64,000 bases of DNA from Thermodesulfobacteriaceae bacterium (GCA_049414625.1 JBMSAU010000110.1:13915-77914), one strand, 5' to 3'. Shown: positions 626 through 57,034, counted from the stretch's first letter. Program-made: numbers and translations. The notes: a model not told the origin generated them from the letters alone.

Positions 626-719
626 GCTAATAAATTTAGGTATATTGTAGCAAAAAACTAATCTAAGTGGTATTTATAGGCTTTTTTGATTATTTTTGTG
701 TCCTACATATTTAGTTGCT

Positions 720-748
720 ATTCTACCCTGAAGATAAATACCCGTCAA
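720..748 (-). promoter_or_regulatory. sigma70-type promoter upstream of queE: -35 TTGACG, 17-nt spacer, -10 TAGAAT
   Basis: On the minus strand, TTGACG (748-743), then a 17-nt spacer, then TAGAAT (725-720). It is preceded by the hairpin CTCCA...TGGAG. It is homologous to the module at 51817-51885. Confidence 0.55.
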
Positions 749-1356
749 TCTTTTCGCAATTCATCTCCACTTTTGTAGAGGATGGAGACATCAAGCATAC
801 AGGTTAAACTTATAGTCTTGTACTCTTTATCAAGTTGATCTTTAGCTGATTTTCCGTTTGCTGTAACTAGCAAAGGTTCGTTACGTGTAAAACCTTTAAT
901 GATAGCTCTGTTTTCCAAAACAATGGGAGCATTTGACCAATTGTAAACTGGGATCGGATTTCTTTTCTCTATCTTCAATACCTGAGATAAAGTGAGCATA
1001 CCAATACTTTGATAGAGATTAATTTTAGCCCAGAAATTTTTGTTGTTAAGTAGGTTATGATGTAGTTGTTCAAATGTTAGTGAAGCTATACCATGTGGAA
1101 CATGTATTGTAATTCGTGTATCAGCAACACCTGTTATTAAACAACTATCTTTATTGTTTGCTTCAAAGACTAACAGATATAATTCATTAACAAATTTTAC
1201 TTCTATATCAGATAACTCTTTTGTAATATAATTTCCATTTACAATAAATATTTTTTTGTCAAAATTCCAATATTTTCGTATGTTTTTCTGTATTTGTTCT
1301 CGCAATATCTGCATATTCTTAGTTGCTGTTAGTTGCTTTATATAATATCTAGACAA
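745..1356 (-). CDS. hypothetical protein
   Basis: ORF track entry with a TTG start. CTAAAATT variant lies just upstream. The 3' end overlaps the hairpin/promoter module for queE. Confidence 0.6.
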   Translation of the reverse strand: MSRYYIKQLTATKNMQILREQIQKNIRKYWNFDKKIFIVNGNYITKELSDIEVKFVNELYLLVFEANNKDSCLITGVADTRITIHVPHGIASLTFEQLHHNLLNNKNFWAKINLYQSIGMLTLSQVLKIEKRNPIPVYNWSNAPIVLENRAIIKGFTRNEPLLVTANGKSAKDQLDKEYKTISLTCMLDVSILYKSGDELRKD

Positions 1357-3029: not shown

Positions 3030-3074
3030 ATAACTAAGTTTAGATATGTTGTATTTTAAAGCTAAAATTTAACC

Positions 3075-4643
3075 ATGATGTTTGTTAGCCTACAGTTCAA
3101 GCTTGAACTGAAAAAAGAAGACAAAGAAAAACTCATAAAGCTAATGCGCAAGCAATCCTCTGCTATTCGTGTAGCATACAATATGCTAAAGGAGTTGGAA
3201 AAAGAAGAAACAAAAAACCCTCACTCTCAGATATACCACAGATTAAGACAGTTATTTCCTGAGTTGCCAACAGGATACATTAATTCAGCCATATACAAAG
3301 CTAAACAGTATACTACTGATAAATCAGTGGTATTTGGAGGTAGAAGACTTTTTGAAAAGCTTTGCAAAAACCACCTTACAGGAAAAGCAAGAGAAAAACT
3401 TAAAAAGCAATGGAGAGAACTAAGACAAGGAACATTGATTGCCATAGGTTCAAAACATAAAACCGTACAGGGTAATCAACTACTCAGGTTTGTGGAACTG
3501 GATGGAAAACTACATCTAAGAATTACCACAGGAAAAAGAGAGTTTATCTACGCAAAAGTGTTAAGAGAACCCAGCAATAGCAAAGATAAGTGGATAACTT
3601 TTATGATTATGCTTTTAGAAAGTTGGCAAACAAAAAACTACTTCGCCTACACAGTAGAACTAAAGCTAAGAGATGGAGAAGTTTATGGAAGCGTATCTTT
3701 TGAGATCCCAACACCTGAAGTGAAATACACCAAAGAAAACGGAGTAATAGCAGTAGACACAAACGCATCACCAATTCACTTAGCCATAGCAGAAGTTTCA
3801 AAGACTGGAGAACTGTTAAGCTATCAAACTATTAGCTTACACTACCTTTTAGGACTTTCCAAAAACACCAAGGATCATCAAGAGTGGATATTAGCCCATC
3901 AGATAGTGGATTTGGCTATTGAGAAAGGCAAAGCTATAGCAGTGGAAAATCTAAAGAAACTCAAAAAGGGAACCCGTGGAGATGGCAAGGCTAAACTGAG
4001 AAGAATACTTCACAGCTGGAACGCCAAAAAGTTTTTACAAAAGCTAAAAAGAGTAGCAAAGCTAAAAGGTGTAGAAGTGATAGAGGTCAACCCTGCCTAT
4101 ACCTCAGTTATCGGTATGCTAAAGTATGCACCGCAATTGAACATAGACAAGGATATTGCAGGTGCTTATGTAATAGGAAGAAGGGCACTGGGATTTAAAG
4201 AAGATACACCCGAGAATTACGAAAGACTACTAAAGGACAAGGCATATCTGGAGTTTGCACTGAAAAGATATGAAGAAAGAGAAAAGGAACTTAGAGAAAT
4301 TATAGAGAAGGAAAGCAACAAATACAAGAGAAATGCACTAAAAAGCGAACTAAAGAATGTAGAGAATGCAAAGAACATTTTAGTTAATCTCATACAAAGC
4401 CTTCAGAGTGAGTCAAGCTCCTGTGAGGGAGCCGATGGAAGGAATCCCGAGCAGGGAGAGACTAAAGAAGTCTCTCAAGTAGCTTGGCAAGTTCTGAAGG
4501 TAGCCTTCCTCTTCCCTATCCTTGGAAAGGTCTTACCAAGAGACCTTTCTTCTCTGAAGCCCATATTGGTGGAAGGGATGTGGGATAGGGTGAGGTATTC
4601 TAAAGGGTTAGCTCCTTTAGAGGCTGGAGGGGCGTCCCGATAA
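3075..4643 (+). CDS. tnpB: TnpB-like (IS200/IS605 OrfB family) RuvC nuclease lacking the zinc-ribbon insert
   Basis: The N-terminus SLQFKLELKKEDKEKLIKLMRKQSSAIRVAYN is TnpB-like. RuvC-I is VIAVDTNASP, RuvC-II is AIAVENLKKL, followed by VNPAYTS. RuvC-III is DKDIAGAYVIGRRAL. No CxxC...CxxC lies between NPAYTS and RuvC-III. G+C is visibly higher than in the flanks. Confidence 0.8.
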   Translation: MMFVSLQFKLELKKEDKEKLIKLMRKQSSAIRVAYNMLKELEKEETKNPHSQIYHRLRQLFPELPTGYINSAIYKAKQYTTDKSVVFGGRRLFEKLCKNHLTGKAREKLKKQWRELRQGTLIAIGSKHKTVQGNQLLRFVELDGKLHLRITTGKREFIYAKVLREPSNSKDKWITFMIMLLESWQTKNYFAYTVELKLRDGEVYGSVSFEIPTPEVKYTKENGVIAVDTNASPIHLAIAEVSKTGELLSYQTISLHYLLGLSKNTKDHQEWILAHQIVDLAIEKGKAIAVENLKKLKKGTRGDGKAKLRRILHSWNAKKFLQKLKRVAKLKGVEVIEVNPAYTSVIGMLKYAPQLNIDKDIAGAYVIGRRALGFKEDTPENYERLLKDKAYLEFALKRYEEREKELREIIEKESNKYKRNALKSELKNVENAKNILVNLIQSLQSESSSCEGADGRNPEQGETKEVSQVAWQVLKVAFLFPILGKVLPRDLSSLKPILVEGMWDRVRYSKGLAPLEAGGASR

Positions 4644-4663
4644 GGGATCTTTAGAACAGCCTC
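4399..4663 (+). ncRNA. candidate omega-RNA-like structured RNA overlapping the tnpB 3' end
   Basis: Perfect local stems: 4417-4421/4428-4432, 4456-4462/4470-4476 (7 bp), 4525-4533/4541-4549 (9 bp) and 4620-4626/4657-4663 (7 bp). Long-range pairs: 4401-4408/4552-4559 and 4514-4521/4583-4590. The in-frame translation here is low-complexity and not protein-like. Confidence 0.45.
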
Positions 4664-12788: not shown

Positions 12789-13226
12789 ATGCACACACTA
12801 TACAGATTACTAGACGATTATTTCATGATTAGACTTAGTGATAACAAAATTATTTTGAGCTATCAGATTAGTTACAACATTAATAGAATATTAACCAGCA
12901 TTGAATATGTAATACGTAGGCACCTATATAAAATACCTAATCATTTTCAAAAATATTTCATACACGTAACATTAAACTGTTTGAATTTAAAAAGTAACAT
13001 ACAATTTGACTTTGCAAGAAAAGAAGTAGTTATAATAACAAGACAAAAAAATGTAAAAGTGTTAGAAGAATTTTTAACTACCTACAAATACAAGTTTCTA
13101 AATACATATGCTTTCAAAAGTTCTATGTTAACAATGATATTTCCTCTGTTTATAGAGAATCAAATTAATGCAGAAACTATACTGTGGTATGTTTTGCTAA
13201 TGACACATCCTATCAATCAATTGTGA
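12789..13226 (+). CDS. hypothetical protein
   Basis: ORF track entry. Exact CTAAATT-N7-ATG lies upstream. Confidence 0.65.
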   Translation: MHTLYRLLDDYFMIRLSDNKIILSYQISYNINRILTSIEYVIRRHLYKIPNHFQKYFIHVTLNCLNLKSNIQFDFARKEVVIITRQKNVKVLEEFLTTYKYKFLNTYAFKSSMLTMIFPLFIENQINAETILWYVLLMTHPINQL

Positions 13227-48427: not shown

Positions 48428-48590
48428 GTTTATTACCTCCTGTGGGTTTTATTTGTTTATTAAATTTAGGTAGATTTTTATTCTGATCTTAAAGTGATTT
48501 TTTTGTTATTGTTTTTTACTAAATAGATAACATGCTAGTTGAGAGTCTCTTATAGCTTCTCTTCATTCCTTTATCTCCTTATTTATAAAT

Positions 48591-51674: not shown

Positions 51675-51816
51675 AACGTTCTTCTGCTAAAAAGTTGTGA
51701 GTAAACAACTTTAAATATTAATGCAAAAAATTTTTTACAAGTATGCTAAAGATAATACTGTAAGAAAACAAACATTTTATTATTGGATGCTATCATTTAA
51801 CACACCTCCGCAAGAA

Positions 51817-51885
51817 GTCTCCATCTTCCGTAAGGTGGAGATTAATTGCGAAAGACTTGACAAGGTTCTTATTTTGGACTATATT
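51817..51885 (+). promoter_or_regulatory. hairpin plus sigma70-type promoter: -35 TTGACA, 17-nt spacer, -10 TATATT
   Basis: Hairpin CTCCATCTT-CCGT-AAGGTGGAG at 51819-51840. -35 at 51857-51862 and -10 at 51880-51885. It is homologous to the queE promoter module at 720-800 on the minus strand. Confidence 0.55.
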
Positions 51886-51889
51886 AATA

Positions 51890-51995
51890 AATGTCCCGAT
51901 AATCAAGGGACCTAGGGCTGGAGCGGCCCGAAGTTAAGCCTGTGGAGAGGCGAAAGCCTCTATGAAGCAGGAAGCTCCACCTATTGGAGCGGCTC
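51890..51995 (+). ncRNA. candidate small structured RNA transcribed from the 51857-51885 promoter
   Basis: A 5' hairpin GTCCC-N9-GGGAC is followed by a G+C-rich element of about 85 nt. Within it, GGGCTGGAGC pairs with GCTCCACCT, CCTG pairs with CAGG, and AGAGGC-GAAA-GCCTCT forms a GNRA-capped stem. No credible ORF is present. Confidence 0.35.
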
Positions 51996-53316
51996 ACTCG
52001 ATATTGTTCTCAAATTGCCAAACAAGATAGTTAACTGATCCAACTTTCTTTGATTCTGGTGTTACAATAGGGTCCAAGTATCCCAACATATCTGTTACAA
52101 GTCTTATTTTGTGACTTAATCTCTTCATTGCAAATTTATGAGCATATGTAGCTTTTAACTGTAACATAACTTCTGATATAGGATTATGTATTTTATCCTC
52201 TACATATTCAACTTGCATTATCTTATACAAAATGGATAGAGATGTTGAATGCTTTCTGGGCAATTTTCGTGTTCTAATTCTCTCATACACCAAGTGCATT
52301 AGTTGTCTAACCAATGGATGCAATAAGAATGTTTTGAATCTTACTGTTTTGCTTTTTAGTGAGCTATACAAACCACAATTTTTTATATAATTGTAGAAGT
52401 CATTGCTTGGAACAAATGTAAATAGAAAGTAATAGGGATCTTTAAACTCCTGTCTAACCAATGGATCAAATATAGCACTTATCTCTCCATATAATAATGT
52501 CATTATCTCAAAAGAATGTTTACCCATAAGTCTTTCTAATAACCTACTTCCACCGTAGTCCTTGAATGATTTTGCAAATCTTCTCCTATAATTGCTTTCA
52601 TATGTTACATCTACAATTAATTGTTTATTGACTGATGTATCTGTATACACAATAGATGTTTCCGTTTCTTGTATTGTTATATATTTAACTTTCTTTCCTT
52701 TTGTTACAGTAGTTACTATGTTTGATTGATTATTATCTAGCTCTTGCATATCAACTTGAAAGCCAGTTTGTTGTAAAACCATATACAACAAATCTAGCAA
52801 GGATAAATTACTTTCCATTAAACTTTCATCATTCTTGAGCAAATACAATATCAAAAAGTTCAATATAGGTAATGTTTTATGTTTTGATTCATATAAGATT
52901 GGTTTTGTTTCATCTAAAATATTTTTAAACACTACTTTCCTATACAGATTAGATAATTTTGCATCCATACTCTCTGTTCCAAATCTATCCAAGAACTTAT
53001 CTGCGATTGAGTAAATAAATACATATCGTTGTCCATTAACTATTATGTAGTTTCCAATAAACCTAGGAATGAATGTTTTATAATTACAAATTGCTCCATC
53101 CTTTTTGTCCTTCAAACTATATTTGATAGTATAAACAGATACTAATCCGTCTGTTGACATGAGATCTTCTTCCTCAATTTGTAAATCAATTAATTCAGCA
53201 TCAATCAGATCACAAAACCAAATTATGGTATTTTTAACATCTTCTGTAATATTGTTTAATACTTGTTTGCGATATGAAATGGGTTTACTGTCTATGTTTA
53301 GGTTTATGAAATACAT
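51994..53316 (-). CDS. multisubunit RNA polymerase beta, N-terminal fragment
   Basis: FIGNYIIVNGQRYVFIYS aligns with FIINGxERVIVSQ. The C-terminal LDPIVTPESKKVGSVNYL aligns with ICPIETPEGPNIGLINSL. The ATG at 53314-53316 is chosen by the exact CTAAATT-N7-ATG (the track extends to 53400). Confidence 0.75.
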   Translation of the reverse strand: MYFINLNIDSKPISYRKQVLNNITEDVKNTIIWFCDLIDAELIDLQIEEEDLMSTDGLVSVYTIKYSLKDKKDGAICNYKTFIPRFIGNYIIVNGQRYVFIYSIADKFLDRFGTESMDAKLSNLYRKVVFKNILDETKPILYESKHKTLPILNFLILYLLKNDESLMESNLSLLDLLYMVLQQTGFQVDMQELDNNQSNIVTTVTKGKKVKYITIQETETSIVYTDTSVNKQLIVDVTYESNYRRRFAKSFKDYGGSRLLERLMGKHSFEIMTLLYGEISAIFDPLVRQEFKDPYYFLFTFVPSNDFYNYIKNCGLYSSLKSKTVRFKTFLLHPLVRQLMHLVYERIRTRKLPRKHSTSLSILYKIMQVEYVEDKIHNPISEVMLQLKATYAHKFAMKRLSHKIRLVTDMLGYLDPIVTPESKKVGSVNYLVWQFENNIE

Positions 53317-53365
53317 GATAGTAAATTTAGTATGGGTGCTCAAAAAAAATGTTTTATTTTTTTTG

Positions 53366-53992
53366 TTATAGTAATATATCATCTGAATCTGATGATACAT
53401 TTACAGTCACATCAGATAGATCCAAATCCAATTCATCTTCTATTGTATCTGATTTATCAATTTCGGATATTTTCTTTTTAGATGGTGCTTCTGTTGTATA
53501 TTTATTGTATAGTTCCCAGAATCTTGTAGCATCTCTTTCAATTCTTTTTAATGTGACACCTTTTCTCATTAGTTCTTCAATTGCATTAATAACCCTATCA
53601 ATCTCCTCTTTGACATTTTCCAATACTTCATCATTTATCTCATTGTCCATTTTTGTTCCAATTTCTCTTAGATATAATGCATGATTTTCTTTTATCACTG
53701 CTATGTATGGAGATGTTTTCAATCCTGTAGCTGATGTCAATCTGTTTGAATAAATCAATGCTACTGTATATCCATTCGCATCATACAATTTGGTTCCTAG
53801 TAGCAAATTCTCTCTTTTCTTAATCACAATTACGTGATCTTTGGATATTGGCTCAATTATTTTGAATTTTTTATTTGCTGGAAATCCGACTAAATTGCTA
53901 CCTACTAACGTACAATAATATATTTGTTCATCATATTTAATTGGTTTGAATACACTTGATAATTTTTCTATGGAGATTACTCTGACCTTCAT
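53366..53992 (-). CDS. hypothetical protein
   Basis: The ATG at 53990-53992 is chosen by the exact CTAAATT-N7-ATG (the track extends to a TTG at 54010). Confidence 0.6.
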   Translation of the reverse strand: MKVRVISIEKLSSVFKPIKYDEQIYYCTLVGSNLVGFPANKKFKIIEPISKDHVIVIKKRENLLLGTKLYDANGYTVALIYSNRLTSATGLKTSPYIAVIKENHALYLREIGTKMDNEINDEVLENVKEEIDRVINAIEELMRKGVTLKRIERDATRFWELYNKYTTEAPSKKKISEIDKSDTIEDELDLDLSDVTVNVSSDSDDILL

Positions 53993-54022: not shown

Positions 54023-55180
54023 TCAAAACCAATCAATTTCATTTGAAGTATCTTTAACAGGAGATCTACCCAAATACATAAACAAATACAAAACTAAATG
54101 CTTTGCTATGTTTGAATACGTTTGCAATGAATACTTACTTAATATATCCTCTCTAATCTTAGGTATTGATATTGTTACACTATATAATTTATTTATCTGA
54201 TTCATATTGGTAGCATCCAATGGAAATCCGACTACACTTATGATTTTATTTACAATCATTTTTAATTCATCATAACTCAATTTTTGTAATTGTTGAATGT
54301 ATTGTTTGAATGTTTGTTTTGATATTTTGTTTCCGAGCATCTCGATTATAGTATCAACTAAATCGTCTATTGGTTCAGGTTCCATTTTGAAGTTAATTAT
54401 TGCATCATGATAATACCTACTGTAATCCCGTTCAGCAATCTCATCTTTAGTAATTTTCTTCTCTTTTGCTATATGTATTAGATTGTCTTTCAATCTGTTA
54501 GCATAGTTATTAACTCTTGCTCGCAAATAACCCGTCCACACATTATGTATTTTTTTCGGATTGGATTCTCTATCAACTAATATTAATTGAGCCTTTCTTT
54601 CTGCAATTGACTCTAATAATCCTGATATGGATGAGAAATTGCTTGGATGTAATAAGTTAGATCTGGGTAATAGTCTTCTGGCTTGTTCAAGATCATGCTT
54701 GTTAAGTATTACAACAGACTTAGTTACTTGAACTATAAACATGATAGCAGAAAACATAAAGTAAAGATTACGAAGTATGGCTAGCTTATCTATAACTGGA
54801 TTGTTATCACAATCTACTAACGTAACAACATCAGCATGTAAGACAATAGCCGCAAGATGCCATCTGTTCATATAGTAAATTGGATTAGATAAACTTGGAT
54901 CAAGAGTTTTATGAAGTTTGAATACTAATTCCTTTAATTCCTTTTGAACTATGCTGGTATTCGTATGCATCTTATCAAACAATAGAGGACGAAATTTTTC
55001 TACACTGATAACATTTAAGTTGTCAACGTATGGTCTTATTTGAGTTGTAATTCTATCGGTTGTACGATACAAAGTTAGCATATAATCTTCAAAATTTTGA
55101 AAACCAAAATAGCGCACAATATGCTCAATTAGTTCTTTTTGTTGATTATTTAACCAGTGAACATATTTACAGTTCGTCAT
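54023..55180 (-). CDS. hypothetical protein
   Basis: ORF track entry. CTAAATT-N8-ATG lies upstream, within the palindrome AGCTAAATTTAGCT. Confidence 0.6.
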   Translation of the reverse strand: MTNCKYVHWLNNQQKELIEHIVRYFGFQNFEDYMLTLYRTTDRITTQIRPYVDNLNVISVEKFRPLLFDKMHTNTSIVQKELKELVFKLHKTLDPSLSNPIYYMNRWHLAAIVLHADVVTLVDCDNNPVIDKLAILRNLYFMFSAIMFIVQVTKSVVILNKHDLEQARRLLPRSNLLHPSNFSSISGLLESIAERKAQLILVDRESNPKKIHNVWTGYLRARVNNYANRLKDNLIHIAKEKKITKDEIAERDYSRYYHDAIINFKMEPEPIDDLVDTIIEMLGNKISKQTFKQYIQQLQKLSYDELKMIVNKIISVVGFPLDATNMNQINKLYSVTISIPKIREDILSKYSLQTYSNIAKHLVLYLFMYLGRSPVKDTSNEIDWF

Positions 55181-55235
55181 AATAGCTAAATTTAGCTGCG
55201 TTGTGTATTACTAATACATAAACAGTTGTGAACTA

Positions 55236-55257
55236 CTCCATCTTCTACAAGATGGAG
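55236..55257 (+). promoter_or_regulatory. perfect hairpin CTCCATCTT-CTAC-AAGATGGAG upstream of the tail sheath gene
   Basis: It shares the 10-mer CTCCATCTTC with the hairpin at 51819-51840. Confidence 0.4.
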
Positions 55258-55294
55258 ACTTCTCACCTAAATTTTTAAAAGCACATAATGAAAT

Positions 55295-57034
55295 ATGTTT
55301 ATTCCAAATCAACTTGCACCTGGTGTTTACATCAATGTTGTATTTGCACCTGAACCATTAATTGGATTACCTGAAAAATACAATGCATTATTCTTTATTG
55401 TAGCAGAGAAAGGACCTGCAAATAAACCAGTGTATATAACATCAGCTCAAAGATTTCTTGATACTTTTGGTCAGCCAGATCCGAAATTCCCATTAACATC
55501 ACTTTATGCATATGAATATGTTAGGAATGGTGGACCAGCATATGTGGTTAGATTACTTCCAAGAAATGCTACAAAAGCTAATGCTACCTTAGCTCTTGTT
55601 CCTGATCCGGATGATGCAGATACCTATGTATGGGCATATGGGTATGTAGATTACTCTACTAATACATTTATTGGTCGCGATGAAATTAATGATAGAAACG
55701 TATCACTACCTGTATCTGCAACTTATGCTCCACCAGAACCTAACAAAGCAGTTATAATTGCGCAATTTGGTGAATACGGTATGTATTACAATACCTATAG
55801 ATTGAGATTTTCATTACCTTTACTTAGAACAAATAAAACATTTAATGTAGTTATAGAAAGAGTTATAGGAACACAAACTGAAAATGTTGCGGTATTCAAT
55901 AATGTTACTTTTGAACCAAATGTAAATGAATTGGGATATCCAACACAAATTAATCATACTCTTTACACATTTAATCAACCAGCATTTGAATACTTAAAGA
56001 CTAACTACATAATAAAGTATAAAGATTATGAAACGAATACTATTACAGATACTAATACAAGACCAATAGATTCTGTTGACATAGTGTATTCAACTAATAC
56101 AATATGGAATTTTGCAGGTGGTTCTGATGGTGGATTAAGAGATCCGCTTACAGGTTTGGTAAATTTCTCATTGTTTGCTGATCTAGTTGTAGAAGCCGTA
56201 TATGGTTATACTACATTACTTCCAAACAGAATACAAGGACTTATTGATGATGAAACAATATTCATCAAATACATTGTTGATCCCTGTGATGAGAGATTTC
56301 CCTACACAAAGAGAAGATCAGTATGGAATGCTTTAGTTGATTTGGCTCAATCCAAGTATATGCTTAATGCTGGTGCTATAGTTCTGAGTAACATAGCTGA
56401 TTTGTTTGACTGGACAGATATAGGACTTTTAGATTCAACCAACCCTCCTATACCTAGACATTATCTACATGCAACTTACTATTCAAAAATTGAGGATGTT
56501 GATGGCAGAATATATCCTCATCTTAGATATGTTGTTCAAAATATTGCTAGATTAAGAGCACAACAACAAAGTATTGAACCACTTGCTGGTGTTATTAATG
56601 CTACGATACCAACAGGAGTAGATGTTATACCGAGATTAACAGTTCCTGAGAGATCAAGGCTGGTAGAACTTGGAATTAACTTTGCTCACAAAGATCCTTT
56701 CTATGGTGTATTTACTGATCTTGATAGAACTACATCACTTGCTCTCGGTAAATTTCTGTATGTAATTGAGGATGTTGTTGATATTAAGAGAGAGCTAGTT
56801 AAATTGCTAAGACCGTTTGTACATAAATTAGAAACTTATGATTGGGAGAGCATCAAGAGTTTAATCATAGACTTCTTACTAAAACCAAGAGTAGCAAGTG
56901 GTTTAATAAAGGAATATGAAGTTAACTTGAGATTATCCGAAGAATTAACTAGACAAAATGTACTAGGCATAGATATGAATCTACGATATGCTCGCGAAAT
57001 AGAACGTATTGCAGTAACAATATATGTGAGATAA
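55295..57034 (+). CDS. contractile tail sheath protein
   Basis: The N-terminus APGVYINVV...ALFFIVAEKGPANKPVYITSAQRFLDTFG matches the typical sheath PGVY...G...GP.N.P..(V/I)TS...F...FG pattern. The size is 579 aa. Confidence 0.75.
   Translation: MFIPNQLAPGVYINVVFAPEPLIGLPEKYNALFFIVAEKGPANKPVYITSAQRFLDTFGQPDPKFPLTSLYAYEYVRNGGPAYVVRLLPRNATKANATLALVPDPDDADTYVWAYGYVDYSTNTFIGRDEINDRNVSLPVSATYAPPEPNKAVIIAQFGEYGMYYNTYRLRFSLPLLRTNKTFNVVIERVIGTQTENVAVFNNVTFEPNVNELGYPTQINHTLYTFNQPAFEYLKTNYIIKYKDYETNTITDTNTRPIDSVDIVYSTNTIWNFAGGSDGGLRDPLTGLVNFSLFADLVVEAVYGYTTLLPNRIQGLIDDETIFIKYIVDPCDERFPYTKRRSVWNALVDLAQSKYMLNAGAIVLSNIADLFDWTDIGLLDSTNPPIPRHYLHATYYSKIEDVDGRIYPHLRYVVQNIARLRAQQQSIEPLAGVINATIPTGVDVIPRLTVPERSRLVELGINFAHKDPFYGVFTDLDRTTSLALGKFLYVIEDVVDIKRELVKLLRPFVHKLETYDWESIKSLIIDFLLKPRVASGLIKEYEVNLRLSEELTRQNVLGIDMNLRYAREIERIAVTIYVR

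What the first reader, a model, noticed from the sequence alone, without database searches (positions are those of the whole stretch)
715..860. A ~140-nt module (gene tail, hairpin, canonical sigma70 promoter, leader hairpin) duplicated in inverted orientation 51 kb apart
The minus strand of 715-860 and the plus strand of 51745-51890 align at the nucleotide level.
- Both contain GCTAAAGAT...TTTAAC...GTCTCCATC, then a loop, then GTGGAGAT.
- Both continue with AATTGCGAAA(A)G and then A(T/C)TTGAC.
- The promoters are TTGACG, 17 nt, TAGAAT in the first copy and TTGACA, 17 nt, TATATT in the second.
- Both then continue through TAAAT(A)TGT...ATAATCAA.

The alignment needs a 1-nt indel inside the hairpin loop, which shifts the reading frame. 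Conservation is therefore at the DNA/RNA level, not the protein level. The first copy drives queE. The second drives a non-coding G+C-rich element.

These are the only two near-consensus host-type promoters I found. This fits an early class of transcripts made by host RNAP, alongside the CTAAATT class.
Basis: seen in the sequence. Interest (0 to 1): 0.6.

Follow-up and report, generated by a model that had tools for sequence, protein, structure and literature searches.

The report
IS605 transposon left ends in phage
The two look-alike "hairpin plus promoter" modules are the left ends of two decayed IS200/IS605-type jumping genes that invaded this hot-spring phage, one a 197-bp gene-less mini-transposon carrying a TnpB guide RNA and the other a stump with the first 13-14 codons of tnpB, so the promoters are transposon baggage and not a phage early-promoter class.

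Summary
The shared sequence is real, but it is shorter than described and has a different meaning. Only the stretch from the target motif TTTAA to the -10 box is significantly alike (window 808-720, minus strand, versus 51796-51884). The "gene tail" and "ATAATCAA" matches are at chance level.

This core is the left end (LE) of a thermophile IS200/IS605 family. It has the TTTAA target, a GCAAGAAG guide-like box, a 10-bp subterminal hairpin, and a TTGACA-17-TATAAT promoter. The same LE sits in front of tnpA+tnpB in Thermus phage YS40_Isch, Thermovorax and Caldanaerobacter. It sits in front of tnpB in Hydrogenobacter, and it heads about 18 gene-less mini elements.

- **Copy B** (51801-51997) is a complete mini element: LE, promoter, omega-RNA scaffold and right end. 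A 97%-identical phage has the empty site.
- **Copy A** (808 to about 668, minus strand) is LE, promoter and the first 13-14 tnpB codons (M*DTKIIKKAYKY). It is cut off and joined to queE's own upstream region.
- **A third relic** lies at 55228-55279.

This is a known kind of element (PATE, IS605). An earlier follow-up in this scan reached the same reading for 51886-51995 of this same window. The scan has no record of it on other DNA.

The parts
804..808 (-). Copy A: target / transposon-adjacent motif TTTAA directly 5' of the left end
   Evidence: TTTAA(C) lies 15-16 nt 5' of the hairpin in 40 of 44 family loci. S. islandicus IS605 TnpB7 uses TAM TTTAA (PMC11043419).
668..803 (-). Copy A: stump of a tnpB-bearing IS605-family element (left end, promoter, 11-nt leader, first 13-14 codons of tnpB), truncated at about 668
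   Evidence: The family profile built without the window hits 809-719 at E=2e-12. It matches Hydrogenobacter sp. RSW1 element L043 almost base for base through ...AAAGCCTATAAATACC. The translation M*DTKIIKKAYKYH compares with L043 TnpB MQETKIIKKAYKYRIYPNKEQ.
764..788 (-). Copy A left-end hairpin (TCTCCATCCT / AAAAGTGGAGA), inner stem decayed
   Evidence: DNA fold -3.8 kcal/mol, z -1.2, against -8.2 for the family consensus.
720..748 (-). Copy A transposon promoter TTGACG-17-TAGAAT
   Evidence: It is homologous to TTGACA-17-TAGAAT in front of tnpB in L043.
667..708 (-). Copy A: relic tnpB start (ATG 708-706, second codon now TAG, then DTKIIKKAYKYH)
626..666 (-). Native queE upstream region with the phage CTAAATT-N7-ATG cassette. 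It is not part of the element.
   Evidence: The sequence from TTAGATTAG onward is shared with the queE locus of IMGVR_UViG_3300005856_000023, where no LE precedes it.
51796..51800 (+). Copy B: target / TAM TTTAA
   Evidence: The empty site in the related phage reads ATCATTTAG|TCGATATT.
51801..51997 (+). Copy B: complete 197-bp gene-less miniature IS200/IS605 element (PATE): left end, promoter, 5' hairpin, omega-RNA scaffold, right end
   Evidence: Family profile E=1e-52. The alignment with 18 mini elements is. The precise empty site is in L055. It is 90-94% identical to multi-copy elements in Hydrogenobacter sp. RSW1.
51818..51841 (+). Copy B left-end hairpin (10-bp stem, CCGT loop), flanked by the GCAA/TTGC outer pairs
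   Evidence: DNA fold -9.5 kcal/mol, z -5.0.
51857..51885 (+). Copy B transposon promoter TTGACA-17-TATATT
   Evidence: 11 of 12 consensus matches. The hexamers are conserved in most intact family members.
51893..51911 (+).
   Evidence: The loop GAUAAYCAA is kept while the stems differ among mini-element subfamilies (GTCCC/GGGAC, AACCCT/AGGGTT, AGCTCT/AGAGTT, GCTTAGC/GCTAAGC). It is absent from the tnpB 3' end of the Hydrogenobacter full-length element.
51914..51997 (+). Omega-RNA (reRNA) scaffold and right end. The right-end hairpin is at 51975-51989 and is shortened by 7 nt. The terminal motif CTCAC is at 51993-51997.
   Evidence: It aligns with the tnpB 3' end of YS40_Isch and with the RM378 mini element. 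9 base pairs show compensatory changes. There is a sub-threshold Rfam RAGATH-18 match, 32.6 bits, E=1.3e-4. The right-end hairpin folds at -5.9 kcal/mol.
51998..52013 (+). Would-be guide of the omega-RNA (TCGATATTGTTCTCAA), antisense to the last codons of the 468-aa gene
   Evidence: The position directly after the UUCAC-type end follows PMC11043419. This is inferred and not tested.
55228..55279 (-). Third relic: TTTAA, the left-end 5' part, one hairpin and the right-end terminus (…GATGGAGTAGTTCAC). It is a left-end/right-end fusion.
   Evidence: Profile hit E=2e-6. The relative keeps a 48-nt longer version at the same site. The hairpin folds at -9.8 kcal/mol.

Best explanation
The duplicated module is the left end (LE) of an IS200/IS605-family transposon. 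The family resembles the element that the Thermus phage YS40_Isch record annotates as ISCsa5, and it circulates among hot-spring thermophiles and their phages.

Anatomy, 5' to 3': the target/TAM TTTAA; 8-9 variable bases; the box GCAAGAAG; a 10-bp subterminal hairpin (TCTCCATCYT-loop-ARGGTGGAGA); GAATTGC; and the element's own sigma70-type promoter (TTGACA, 17 nt, TATAAT).

In autonomous relatives this promoter sits 6-11 nt before the tnpA or tnpB start codon.

Shown here: copy B is the LE half of a complete 197-bp gene-less derivative (a PATE). In it the promoter is fused to the omega-RNA scaffold and the right end, and it inserted 3' of TTTAA with no target duplication. Copy A is the LE, promoter and first 13-14 codons of a tnpB-bearing copy. 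A deletion or rearrangement removed the rest and joined it to the queE leader. A third relic at 55.2 kb is a left-end/right-end fusion.

Inferred from the IS608 and IS605 paradigm: the hairpin and the GCAAGAAG box are what a Y1 (HUH) TnpA transposase recognises on single-stranded DNA. The promoter transcribes tnpA or tnpB, or the omega-RNA in mini elements. That RNA would need a TnpB supplied in trans. Both window copies look immobile now, because the copy A hairpin has decayed and the copy B right-end hairpin is shortened. No cognate TnpA or TnpB is in the assembly.
For: The same LE lies directly upstream of tnpA+tnpB in Thermus phage YS40_Isch, and it heads a mini element in Rhodothermus phage RM378.

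Pattern scans found 7 viral and 34 genomic loci, mostly Aquificaceae and other thermophiles, with several copies per genome. Of 44 loci, 40 have TTTAA(C) at a fixed distance. tblastn finds tnpA+tnpB or tnpB behind the LE in L003, L045, L027, L043 and L034.

The alignment of 19 mini elements shows the order LE, promoter, omega-RNA, right end, with unique flanks. A family profile built without the window hits copy B at E=1e-52, copy A at 2e-12 and relic C at 2e-6.

Precise empty sites exist: copy B is absent from a 97%-identical phage; site D is occupied in that phage and empty in the window; phiYS40 is empty where YS40_Isch is occupied.

Copy A matches the LE-to-tnpB start of Hydrogenobacter element L043, including KIIKKAYKY.

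The omega-RNA stems covary, and there is a RAGATH-18 sub-threshold hit.

The TAM TTTAA and the UUCAC end match the experimentally characterised S. islandicus IS605 TnpB7 (PMC11043419). PATEs that encode omega-RNAs are described in PMC10055086.
Against: The assembly holds no Y1 transposase and no cognate TnpB. Mobility and omega-RNA use therefore depend on unseen partners.

There are no expression data.

The left boundary is ambiguous by one base (TTTAA|C versus TTTAAC|). The phiYS40 comparison carries an extra 16-17-nt indel at the junction.

Some family members have lost the -35 box or its spacing, so the promoter is not indispensable to the element.
Confidence: 0.9

Rival explanations
1. This is an exaptation and is not exclusive of the main reading. 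Although they came from a transposon, the two promoters are now used by the phage as host-RNA-polymerase (early) promoters. Copy A would add early transcription of queE. Copy B would make a small RNA, or an antisense RNA against the 3' end of the neighbouring 468-aa gene.
For: Both promoters keep near-consensus hexamers with exact 17-nt spacing, even though the copy A hairpin has decayed. The arrangement of copy A next to queE is shared with a second phage, UViG_3300034404_000011.
Against: queE has its own conserved phage cassette. In UViG_3300005856_000023 it is expressed from the same leader without any LE. At site A that phage has lost the -10 box. Copy B is simply absent from it, so neither promoter is needed by the lineage. 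The two phages that share copy A are 98-99% identical in this region, which is too close to show selection.
Confidence: 0.2
2. The module is a genuine phage regulatory cassette (terminator-like hairpin, early promoter, leader hairpin) that the phage duplicated to define an early transcript class.
For: There are two copies with promoter-like hexamers, in intergenic or gene-end positions.
Against: The same sequence is the end of tnpA/tnpB transposons, and of multi-copy mini elements in bacteria, archaeal and candidate-phylum genome bins, and unrelated phages. Empty sites exist in close relatives. The hairpin has no T tract, and 0 terminator-like sites were found. Copy A continues into a tnpB start and not into a shared leader. 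Other equally good sigma70-like sites exist in the window.
Confidence: 0.03
3. The similarity between two AT-rich intergenic stretches is due to chance.
For: The outer parts of the claimed alignment are at chance level.
Against: No shuffle out of 2000 reaches the core score. No matches to the pattern are expected by chance. Profile E-values are 1e-52 and 2e-12.
Confidence: 0.01

Closest known systems
PATE-like, protein-less IS200/IS605 elements that encode omega-RNAs (Geobacillus stearothermophilus; Meers et al. 2023, PMC10055086)
   Same: They have left and right ends with subterminal hairpins, no open reading frame, and an omega-RNA in the right end that would need TnpB in trans. They are multi-copy and are mobilised in trans by TnpA. 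Copy B fits this description.
   Different: The sequence family, TAM and right-end terminal motif differ (TTTAA and TTCAC here). Here the element sits in a phage genome, and a conserved sigma70-type promoter is fused within about 10-30 nt of the omega-RNA. A mini-element-specific hairpin with a GAUAAYCAA loop lies between them.
Sulfolobus islandicus IS605 TnpB7 system (PMC11043419)
   Same: The TAM is TTTAA. The guide RNA scaffold ends in UUCAC, directly followed by the guide. The native right-end motif is TTCAC. In this family, TTTAA flanks the left end and TTCAC (CTCAC in copy B) ends the right end.
   Different: It is an archaeal element with a resident tnpB. No sequence comparison with its RNA was made here. 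The window copies have no intact tnpB.
Element annotated as ISCsa5 (IS200/IS605 family, tnpA+tnpB) in Thermus phage YS40_Isch (MK257744.1), and the gene-less mini element in Rhodothermus phage RM378 (NC_004735.1, 25.4-25.7 kb)
   Same: They share the LE hairpin, the GAATTGC box, the promoter and the omega-RNA/right end. They are also phage-borne. phiYS40 provides an empty site.
   Different: YS40_Isch carries the autonomous form. RM378 keeps 53 tnpB codons. Window copy B keeps none, and copy A keeps 13-14 and lacks a right end.
Multi-copy mini elements and a tnpB element of Hydrogenobacter sp. RSW1 (Aquificaceae)
   Same: Identity to copy B is 90-94%, including the GTCCCGATAATCAAGGGAC hairpin. 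Its LE-tnpB junction (L043) is nearly identical to copy A.
   Different: These are chromosomal copies with intact right-end hairpins. The copy B right-end hairpin has a 7-nt deletion and CTCAC in place of TTCAC.
RAGATH-18 RNA (Rfam RF03064), the reRNA of IS607 TnpBs (PMC11061315)
   Same: Window 51939-51973 matches the model over its full length at 32.6 bits, E=1.3e-4.
   Different: The score is below the gathering score of 44.9. The RAGATH-18 paper concerns IS607 (serine recombinase) elements. Here the ends are of the IS605 (Y1 transposase) type.

Membership tests
IS200/IS605 family (IS605-type element and its PATE derivatives) | Subterminal hairpins at both ends instead of terminal inverted repeats, with the left-end and right-end hairpins alike | tested here: met
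   The left-end stem TCTCCATCTT/AAGGTGGAGA and the right-end stem CTCCATCTT/AAGATGGAG are near-identical across the family. DNA folds give z -4 to -5 for the consensus, the copy B left end and relic C. Compensatory T-A to C-G changes occur in the stem.
IS200/IS605 family (IS605-type element and its PATE derivatives) | Insertion 3' of a short specific target (TAM) without target-site duplication | tested here: met
   TTTAA(C) is present in 40 of 44 loci. Occupied and empty pairs at site B and site D show no duplication.
IS200/IS605 family (IS605-type element and its PATE derivatives) | The same ends flank a Y1 (HUH) transposase tnpA and/or tnpB in autonomous relatives | tested here: met
   tnpA+tnpB lie behind the LE in L003, L045 and L027. 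tnpB lies behind it in L043, L034 and L071.
IS200/IS605 family (IS605-type element and its PATE derivatives) | The right end encodes a structured omega-RNA/reRNA that ends at the transposon boundary | tested here: met
   It is homologous to the tnpB 3' end. 9 base pairs covary. There is a RAGATH-18 sub-threshold hit. Expression and TnpB binding were not tested.
IS200/IS605 family (IS605-type element and its PATE derivatives) | TnpA-dependent excision and integration through single-stranded DNA | not testable with these tools
   This needs an excision assay. Only the footprint (precise empty sites) was seen.
PATE (gene-less IS200/IS605 derivative) | Both ends are present and there is no protein-coding gene between them | tested here: met
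   Copy B is 197 bp. The only open reading frame is a 64-aa frame that runs through the flank, the left end and the omega-RNA. Copy A fails this test: it has no right end and is a truncated tnpB element.
Bacterial sigma70-type promoter | -35 and -10 hexamers at 16-18 nt spacing | tested here: met
   Copy A matches 10 of 12 positions and copy B 11 of 12, both at 17 nt. The hexamers are kept and the spacers vary in most intact family members.
Bacterial sigma70-type promoter | A transcription start 6-8 nt downstream of the -10 box | not testable with these tools
Intrinsic terminator | A G+C-rich hairpin followed by a T run | tested here: not met
   No terminator-like sites were found in either region. 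The hairpin is followed by GATGAATTGCG.

The most novel reading that the evidence does not exclude
The phage-borne mini elements may be working 'promoter plus omega-RNA' cassettes. They would borrow a TnpB from the host, or from a co-resident element, to cut sibling phage genomes that lack the insertion. That would be a homing-endonuclease-like drive between co-infecting phages.

One hint points this way. Both empty alleles seen here carry changes in the 5-nt TAM next to otherwise 96-98% identical flanks. Site B reads TTTAG instead of TTTAA in the relative. Site D reads TGTGA instead of TTTAA in the window. These could be escape scars. My rough estimate that both arose by chance is about 0.001. 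This estimate is post hoc, rests on two sites, and was not computed with a tool.

Different deletion joints all place the LE promoter next to the omega-RNA (at least three are visible). This may be selected and not accidental.
Probability: 0.1. Interest if true: 0.7.

Novelty: new member of a known kind. Interest (0 to 1): 0.3.

Why it matters
This removes a false lead. The "host-type early promoters" of this RNA-polymerase-encoding hot-spring phage are imported transposon ends, so they should not be used to infer the phage's transcription programme.

It also adds some positive knowledge:
- It defines a widespread thermophile IS605 family by its TAM (TTTAA), its right-end terminal motif (TTCAC), its LE promoter and its omega-RNA.
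- This phage lineage has been invaded at six or more sites, and the relics decay by different deletions in sister phages.
- The element-bearing genomes found are mostly Aquificaceae, which hints at the host range of the phage.
- The relics mark where gene order differs between sister phages. They also rewrite gene ends: the last 19 codons of the 203-aa gene come from a left end, and the stop codon of the 468-aa gene comes from a right end.

Tried and rejected
- **Rfam at gathering thresholds:** no match in the whole window. Only a sub-threshold RAGATH-18 hit appeared at E-value threshold.
- **ARAGORN:** no tRNA or tmRNA.
- **blastn of copy A against the phage collection:** no match. The link came from copy B's downstream element.
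- **Own assembly:** no Y1 transposase, no YS40-type TnpB, and no further copies except a distant right-end-like hairpin on the small contig C129. The window's own TnpB-like gene (3075-4643) is unrelated to the family's TnpB, and its 3' RNA does not align with copy B. It is therefore not the cognate partner.
- **Copy A as a decayed copy of the B-type mini element:** rejected. The part after the -10 box matches the tnpB start of L043 instead.
- **The copy A -10 region as a decayed right-end terminus** (it resembles GGTGGAGTAGTTCAC, as seen at the same site in UViG_3300005856): rejected for the same reason.
- **One inversion splitting a single tnpB element** into the copy A stump and the tnpB 3'/right-end relic seen 5 kb away in UViG_3300034404: rejected. 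The predicted junctions do not match the queE upstream region of UViG_3300005856, and the middle of tnpB is missing.

Full report
**1. Observation**

Reading both regions and aligning them confirms a shared core. On the minus strand of the window, from about 808 to 720, and on the plus strand at 51796-51885, both carry this order of features:
- TTTAAC;
- about 8 variable bases;
- G(C/A)..GA(A/T)GTCTCCATC, a loop, then GTGGAGAT;
- (G/T)AATTGCGAAA;
- TTGAC(G/A), 17 nt, then TA(G/T)A(A/T)T.

A gapped pattern for the core finds exactly these two places in the window, with none expected by chance. It finds no others in the 2.0-Mb assembly.

A shuffle test separates signal from noise:

| Segment | Result |
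|---|---|
| Core, TTTAA to the -10 box | score 46 versus 13.7 +/- 2.2; 0 of 2000 shuffles as good |
| "Gene tail" 9-mer GCTAAAGAT | 605 of 2000 shuffles as good |
| "ATAATCAA" leader match | 333 of 2000 shuffles as good |

Its 5' third is native phage flank, which a relative that lacks the element also carries.

The promoter hexamers are as stated. They are not unique in the window: 23230(+) and 2866(-) are equally good.

**2. What it is**

The decisive lead was the G+C-rich element downstream of copy B. It matches the extreme 3' end of a tnpB gene in Thermus phage YS40_Isch, whose product the record annotates as "IS200/IS605 family transposase ISCsa5". It also matches an unannotated intergenic stretch in Rhodothermus phage RM378.

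I then read the left sides of those two elements. The module under study sits there, immediately upstream of tnpA in YS40_Isch:
GCAAGAAATCTCCATCTTCTAAAGGTGGATATGAATTGC..TTGAAA-16-TATAAT-ATTCTT-ATG.
It also stands at the head of a roughly 340-bp mini element in RM378.

Comparing YS40_Isch with phiYS40 places the element's ends at TTTTAA(C)|...GTTCAC|.

Scans with the LE pattern returned 7 viral and 34 genomic loci. They come from Hydrogenobacter sp. RSW1 (7 loci), an Aquificaceae genome bin (5), an uncultured bin (11), Caldanaerobacter, Thermovorax, Pseudothermotoga, and bins labelled Patescibacteria, Woesearchaeota and Sericytochromatia. Four are chance hits. The other 40 all have TTTAA(C) 15-16 nt before the hairpin, and GCAAGAAGTC.

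Behind the LE lies one of three things:
- tnpA+tnpB (L003, L045, L027);
- tnpB alone (L043, L034);
- in 18 cases, after only 120-170 nt, the right end.

The aligned mini elements show one architecture: TTTAA | LE hairpin | TTGACA-17-TATAAT | structured RNA | right-end hairpin GCTCCATCTTCTATAAGATGGAGTAGTTCAC | unique flank.

The RNA part has 9 base pairs with compensatory changes. It gives a sub-threshold Rfam match to RAGATH-18 (32.6 bits, E=1.3e-4). RAGATH-18 is the motif from which TnpB guide RNAs (reRNAs) derive (PMC11061315).

The TAM TTTAA and a scaffold ending in UUCAC directly before the guide are exactly what was shown experimentally for Sulfolobus islandicus IS605 TnpB7 (PMC11043419).

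**3. The copies in the window**

A profile built from the family without the window scores three places:

| Place | Coordinates hit | E-value |
|---|---|---|
| Copy B | 51795-52010 | 1e-52 |
| Copy A | 809-719 | 2e-12 |
| Third relic (C) | 55259-55221 | 2e-6 |

*Copy B.* The element spans 51801-51997 and is a complete 197-bp gene-less element. Phage IMGVR_UViG_3300005856_000023, whose capsid protein is 97% identical, has the empty site. It reads ...ATCATTTAG|TCGATATT..., against the window's ATCATTTAA[C ACACC...GGCTCAC]TCGATATT. Its closest relatives are 90-94% identical multi-copy elements in Hydrogenobacter sp. RSW1, a genome that also holds a tnpB-bearing family member. The left-end hairpin is intact (-9.5 kcal/mol, z -5). 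The right-end hairpin has lost 7 nt, and the terminal motif reads CTCAC.

*Copy A.* This is not a second mini element. From TTTAA through ...AAAGCCTATAAATACC it matches the LE-tnpB junction of Hydrogenobacter element L043 almost base for base: TTGACA-17-TAGAAT, GACAACTAAAT, then ATG. It translates as M*DTKIIKKAYKYH, against L043 TnpB MQETKIIKKAYKYRIYPNKEQ. Similarity stops at about 668. From TTAGATTAG (666) downward the sequence is queE's own upstream region. It is identical to the region in front of queE in UViG_3300005856, where no LE is present and queE lies about 40 kb from the 203-aa gene. The copy A hairpin has decayed (-3.8 kcal/mol, z -1.2).

At the same insertion site UViG_3300005856 keeps a different wreck. 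It has the left-end start, a deleted hairpin, and the -35 box fused to the right-end terminus AAGGTGGAGTAGTTCAC, followed by a different gene. UViG_3300034404_000011 has the window's version. The insertion therefore predates the split of these phages and has decayed independently in each.

*Relic C.* The stretch 55228-55279 (minus strand) is a left-end 5' part joined to a right-end 3' part through a single hairpin. The sister phage keeps a version 48 nt longer at the same place.

*Further sites.* Site D is occupied in UViG_3300005856 and empty in the window. Sites E and F exist in UViG_3300034404.

**4. How it most likely works**

*Shown:*
- the element's anatomy and its family-wide conservation;
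- its association with tnpA and tnpB;
- target specificity;
- precise presence/absence polymorphism without target duplication;
- covariation in the RNA part.

*Inferred from the IS608 and IS605 paradigm* (PMC10055086; the IS608 and IS200 details below are from my own knowledge of that literature):
- A Y1 TnpA recognises the left-end and right-end hairpins on single-stranded DNA.
- The boxes 5' of the hairpins (GCAAGAAG at the left end, GCAGGAAG at the right end) probably act as the DNA "guides" that pair with the cleavage sites (TTTAA(C) and GTTCAC). The two boxes differ at one position, and so do the two cleavage motifs, which fits this.
- The LE promoter drives tnpA or tnpB as near-leaderless mRNAs, because the -10 box lies 6-11 nt from the ATG.
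- In mini elements the promoter drives the omega-RNA, whose guide would be the 16-20 nt after the right end (51998 onward). That RNA needs a TnpB supplied in trans.

The hairpin is not a terminator.

The assembly has no TnpA and no cognate TnpB. The phage contig is 31.8% G+C against about 40-43% for the rest of the bin, so the true host may be another organism. The relatives of the element suggest an Aquificaceae host.

**5. Comparison with what is known, and novelty**

Gene-less IS200/IS605 derivatives (PATEs) that keep an omega-RNA and depend on TnpB in trans are described in PMC10055086. IS605 elements also occur in thermophile phages (YS40_Isch). This finding is therefore a new member of a known kind.

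An earlier follow-up in this scan (e1-2945852) reached the same reading for 51886-51995 of this same window. I reached it independently before seeing that note.

What this report adds:
- the duplicated module is specifically the left end;
- copy A is a truncated tnpB element and not a mini element;
- the queE juxtaposition is a lineage-specific junction;
- the lineage carries relics at six or more sites.

**6. Loose end**

Both empty alleles differ from the occupied ones inside the 5-nt TAM (TTTAG at site B, TGTGA at site D), although their flanks are 96-98% identical. With two sites this is only a hint. It is what would be expected if TnpB plus omega-RNA had selected TAM-escape variants among element-free phages. 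I give that reading about 10%.

**7. Verdict**

The element is an ordinary though neatly documented IS605/PATE relic. Interest is 0.3.

Noticed in passing
window 55228-55279 (minus strand): This is a third relic of the same transposon family: TTTAA, the left-end 5' part, one hairpin and the right-end terminus (a left-end/right-end fusion of about 47 nt). It lies between the divergent genes 54023-55180(-) and 55295-57034(+). Its left-end bases AAATTTAGG, read on the plus strand, supply the CCTAAATTT motif upstream of the 55295 gene. The sister phage has a version 48 nt longer.
   Followed up: yes
window 13222-13226; L055 (empty site B): Both empty alleles of insertion sites have a changed TAM. 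The window reads TGTGA where UViG_3300005856 has TTTAA plus a relic (site D). UViG_3300005856 reads TTTAG where the window has TTTAA plus copy B. This could be chance, or escape from TnpB cutting.
   Followed up: partly
window 51893-51911 and the mini elements in L015, L016, L022-L036, L048: A hairpin between the LE promoter and the omega-RNA core has a conserved loop, GAUAAYCAA, and covarying stems across mini-element subfamilies. It is absent from the tnpB 3' end of the full-length Hydrogenobacter element. Its function is unknown; it could be a 5' stabiliser or a processing signal.
   Followed up: partly
window 745-803 and 51994-51996: The insertions rewrote gene ends. The last 19 codons and the stop (the TGA inside the -35 box) of the 203-aa gene 745-1356(-) are encoded by the left end. 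The stop codon of the 468-aa gene 51994-53400(-) is the TCA of the right-end terminus; in the element-free relative the protein ends ...NNID with TAA instead of ...NNIE with TGA.
   Followed up: yes
window 668-720 versus L056 and L063: Gene order differs between sister phages exactly at the copy A stump. The 203-aa gene is followed by queE here and in UViG_3300034404. In UViG_3300005856 it is followed by a homologue of the gene at C110:92255, and queE lies about 40 kb away.
   Followed up: partly
L075:1207-1585 (UViG_3300034404_000011), corresponding to C110:9343-9727, outside the window: The sister phage carries the C-terminal ~115 codons of a family tnpB plus the omega-RNA and right end. The window's contig has about 385 nt of unrelated sequence between identical flanks at that place.
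   Followed up: partly
window 3055-4663: The separate 1.6-kb TnpB-like insertion is absent from both sister phages (their homology skips C110:16969-18577). Its protein is unrelated to the TnpB of the family studied here.
   Followed up: partly
window 48457-48515 and C110:92185-92260: A phage intergenic cassette of about 75 nt (CATGTTATCTATTTAGTAAAAAACAATAACAAAAAAATCAYTTTAAGATCAGAATAAAAATCTACCTAAATTTA) occurs at least twice in the contig. It also follows the right-end terminus of the site A relic in UViG_3300005856.
   Followed up: no
contig C110 versus the rest of assembly G000: The 94.4-kb phage contig is 31.8% G+C, while the large contigs of the bin are 40-43%. The phage may not belong to this bin's organism.
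   Followed up: no
L017, L039 versus L003: A second, independent mini-element type derives from the YS40-type autonomous element by a deletion between two CTTA repeats. The deletion fuses TATAATATTCTTA directly to GTAGGGCTGG. It is found in an IMG/VR contig and in a genome bin labelled Patescibacteria.
   Followed up: partly
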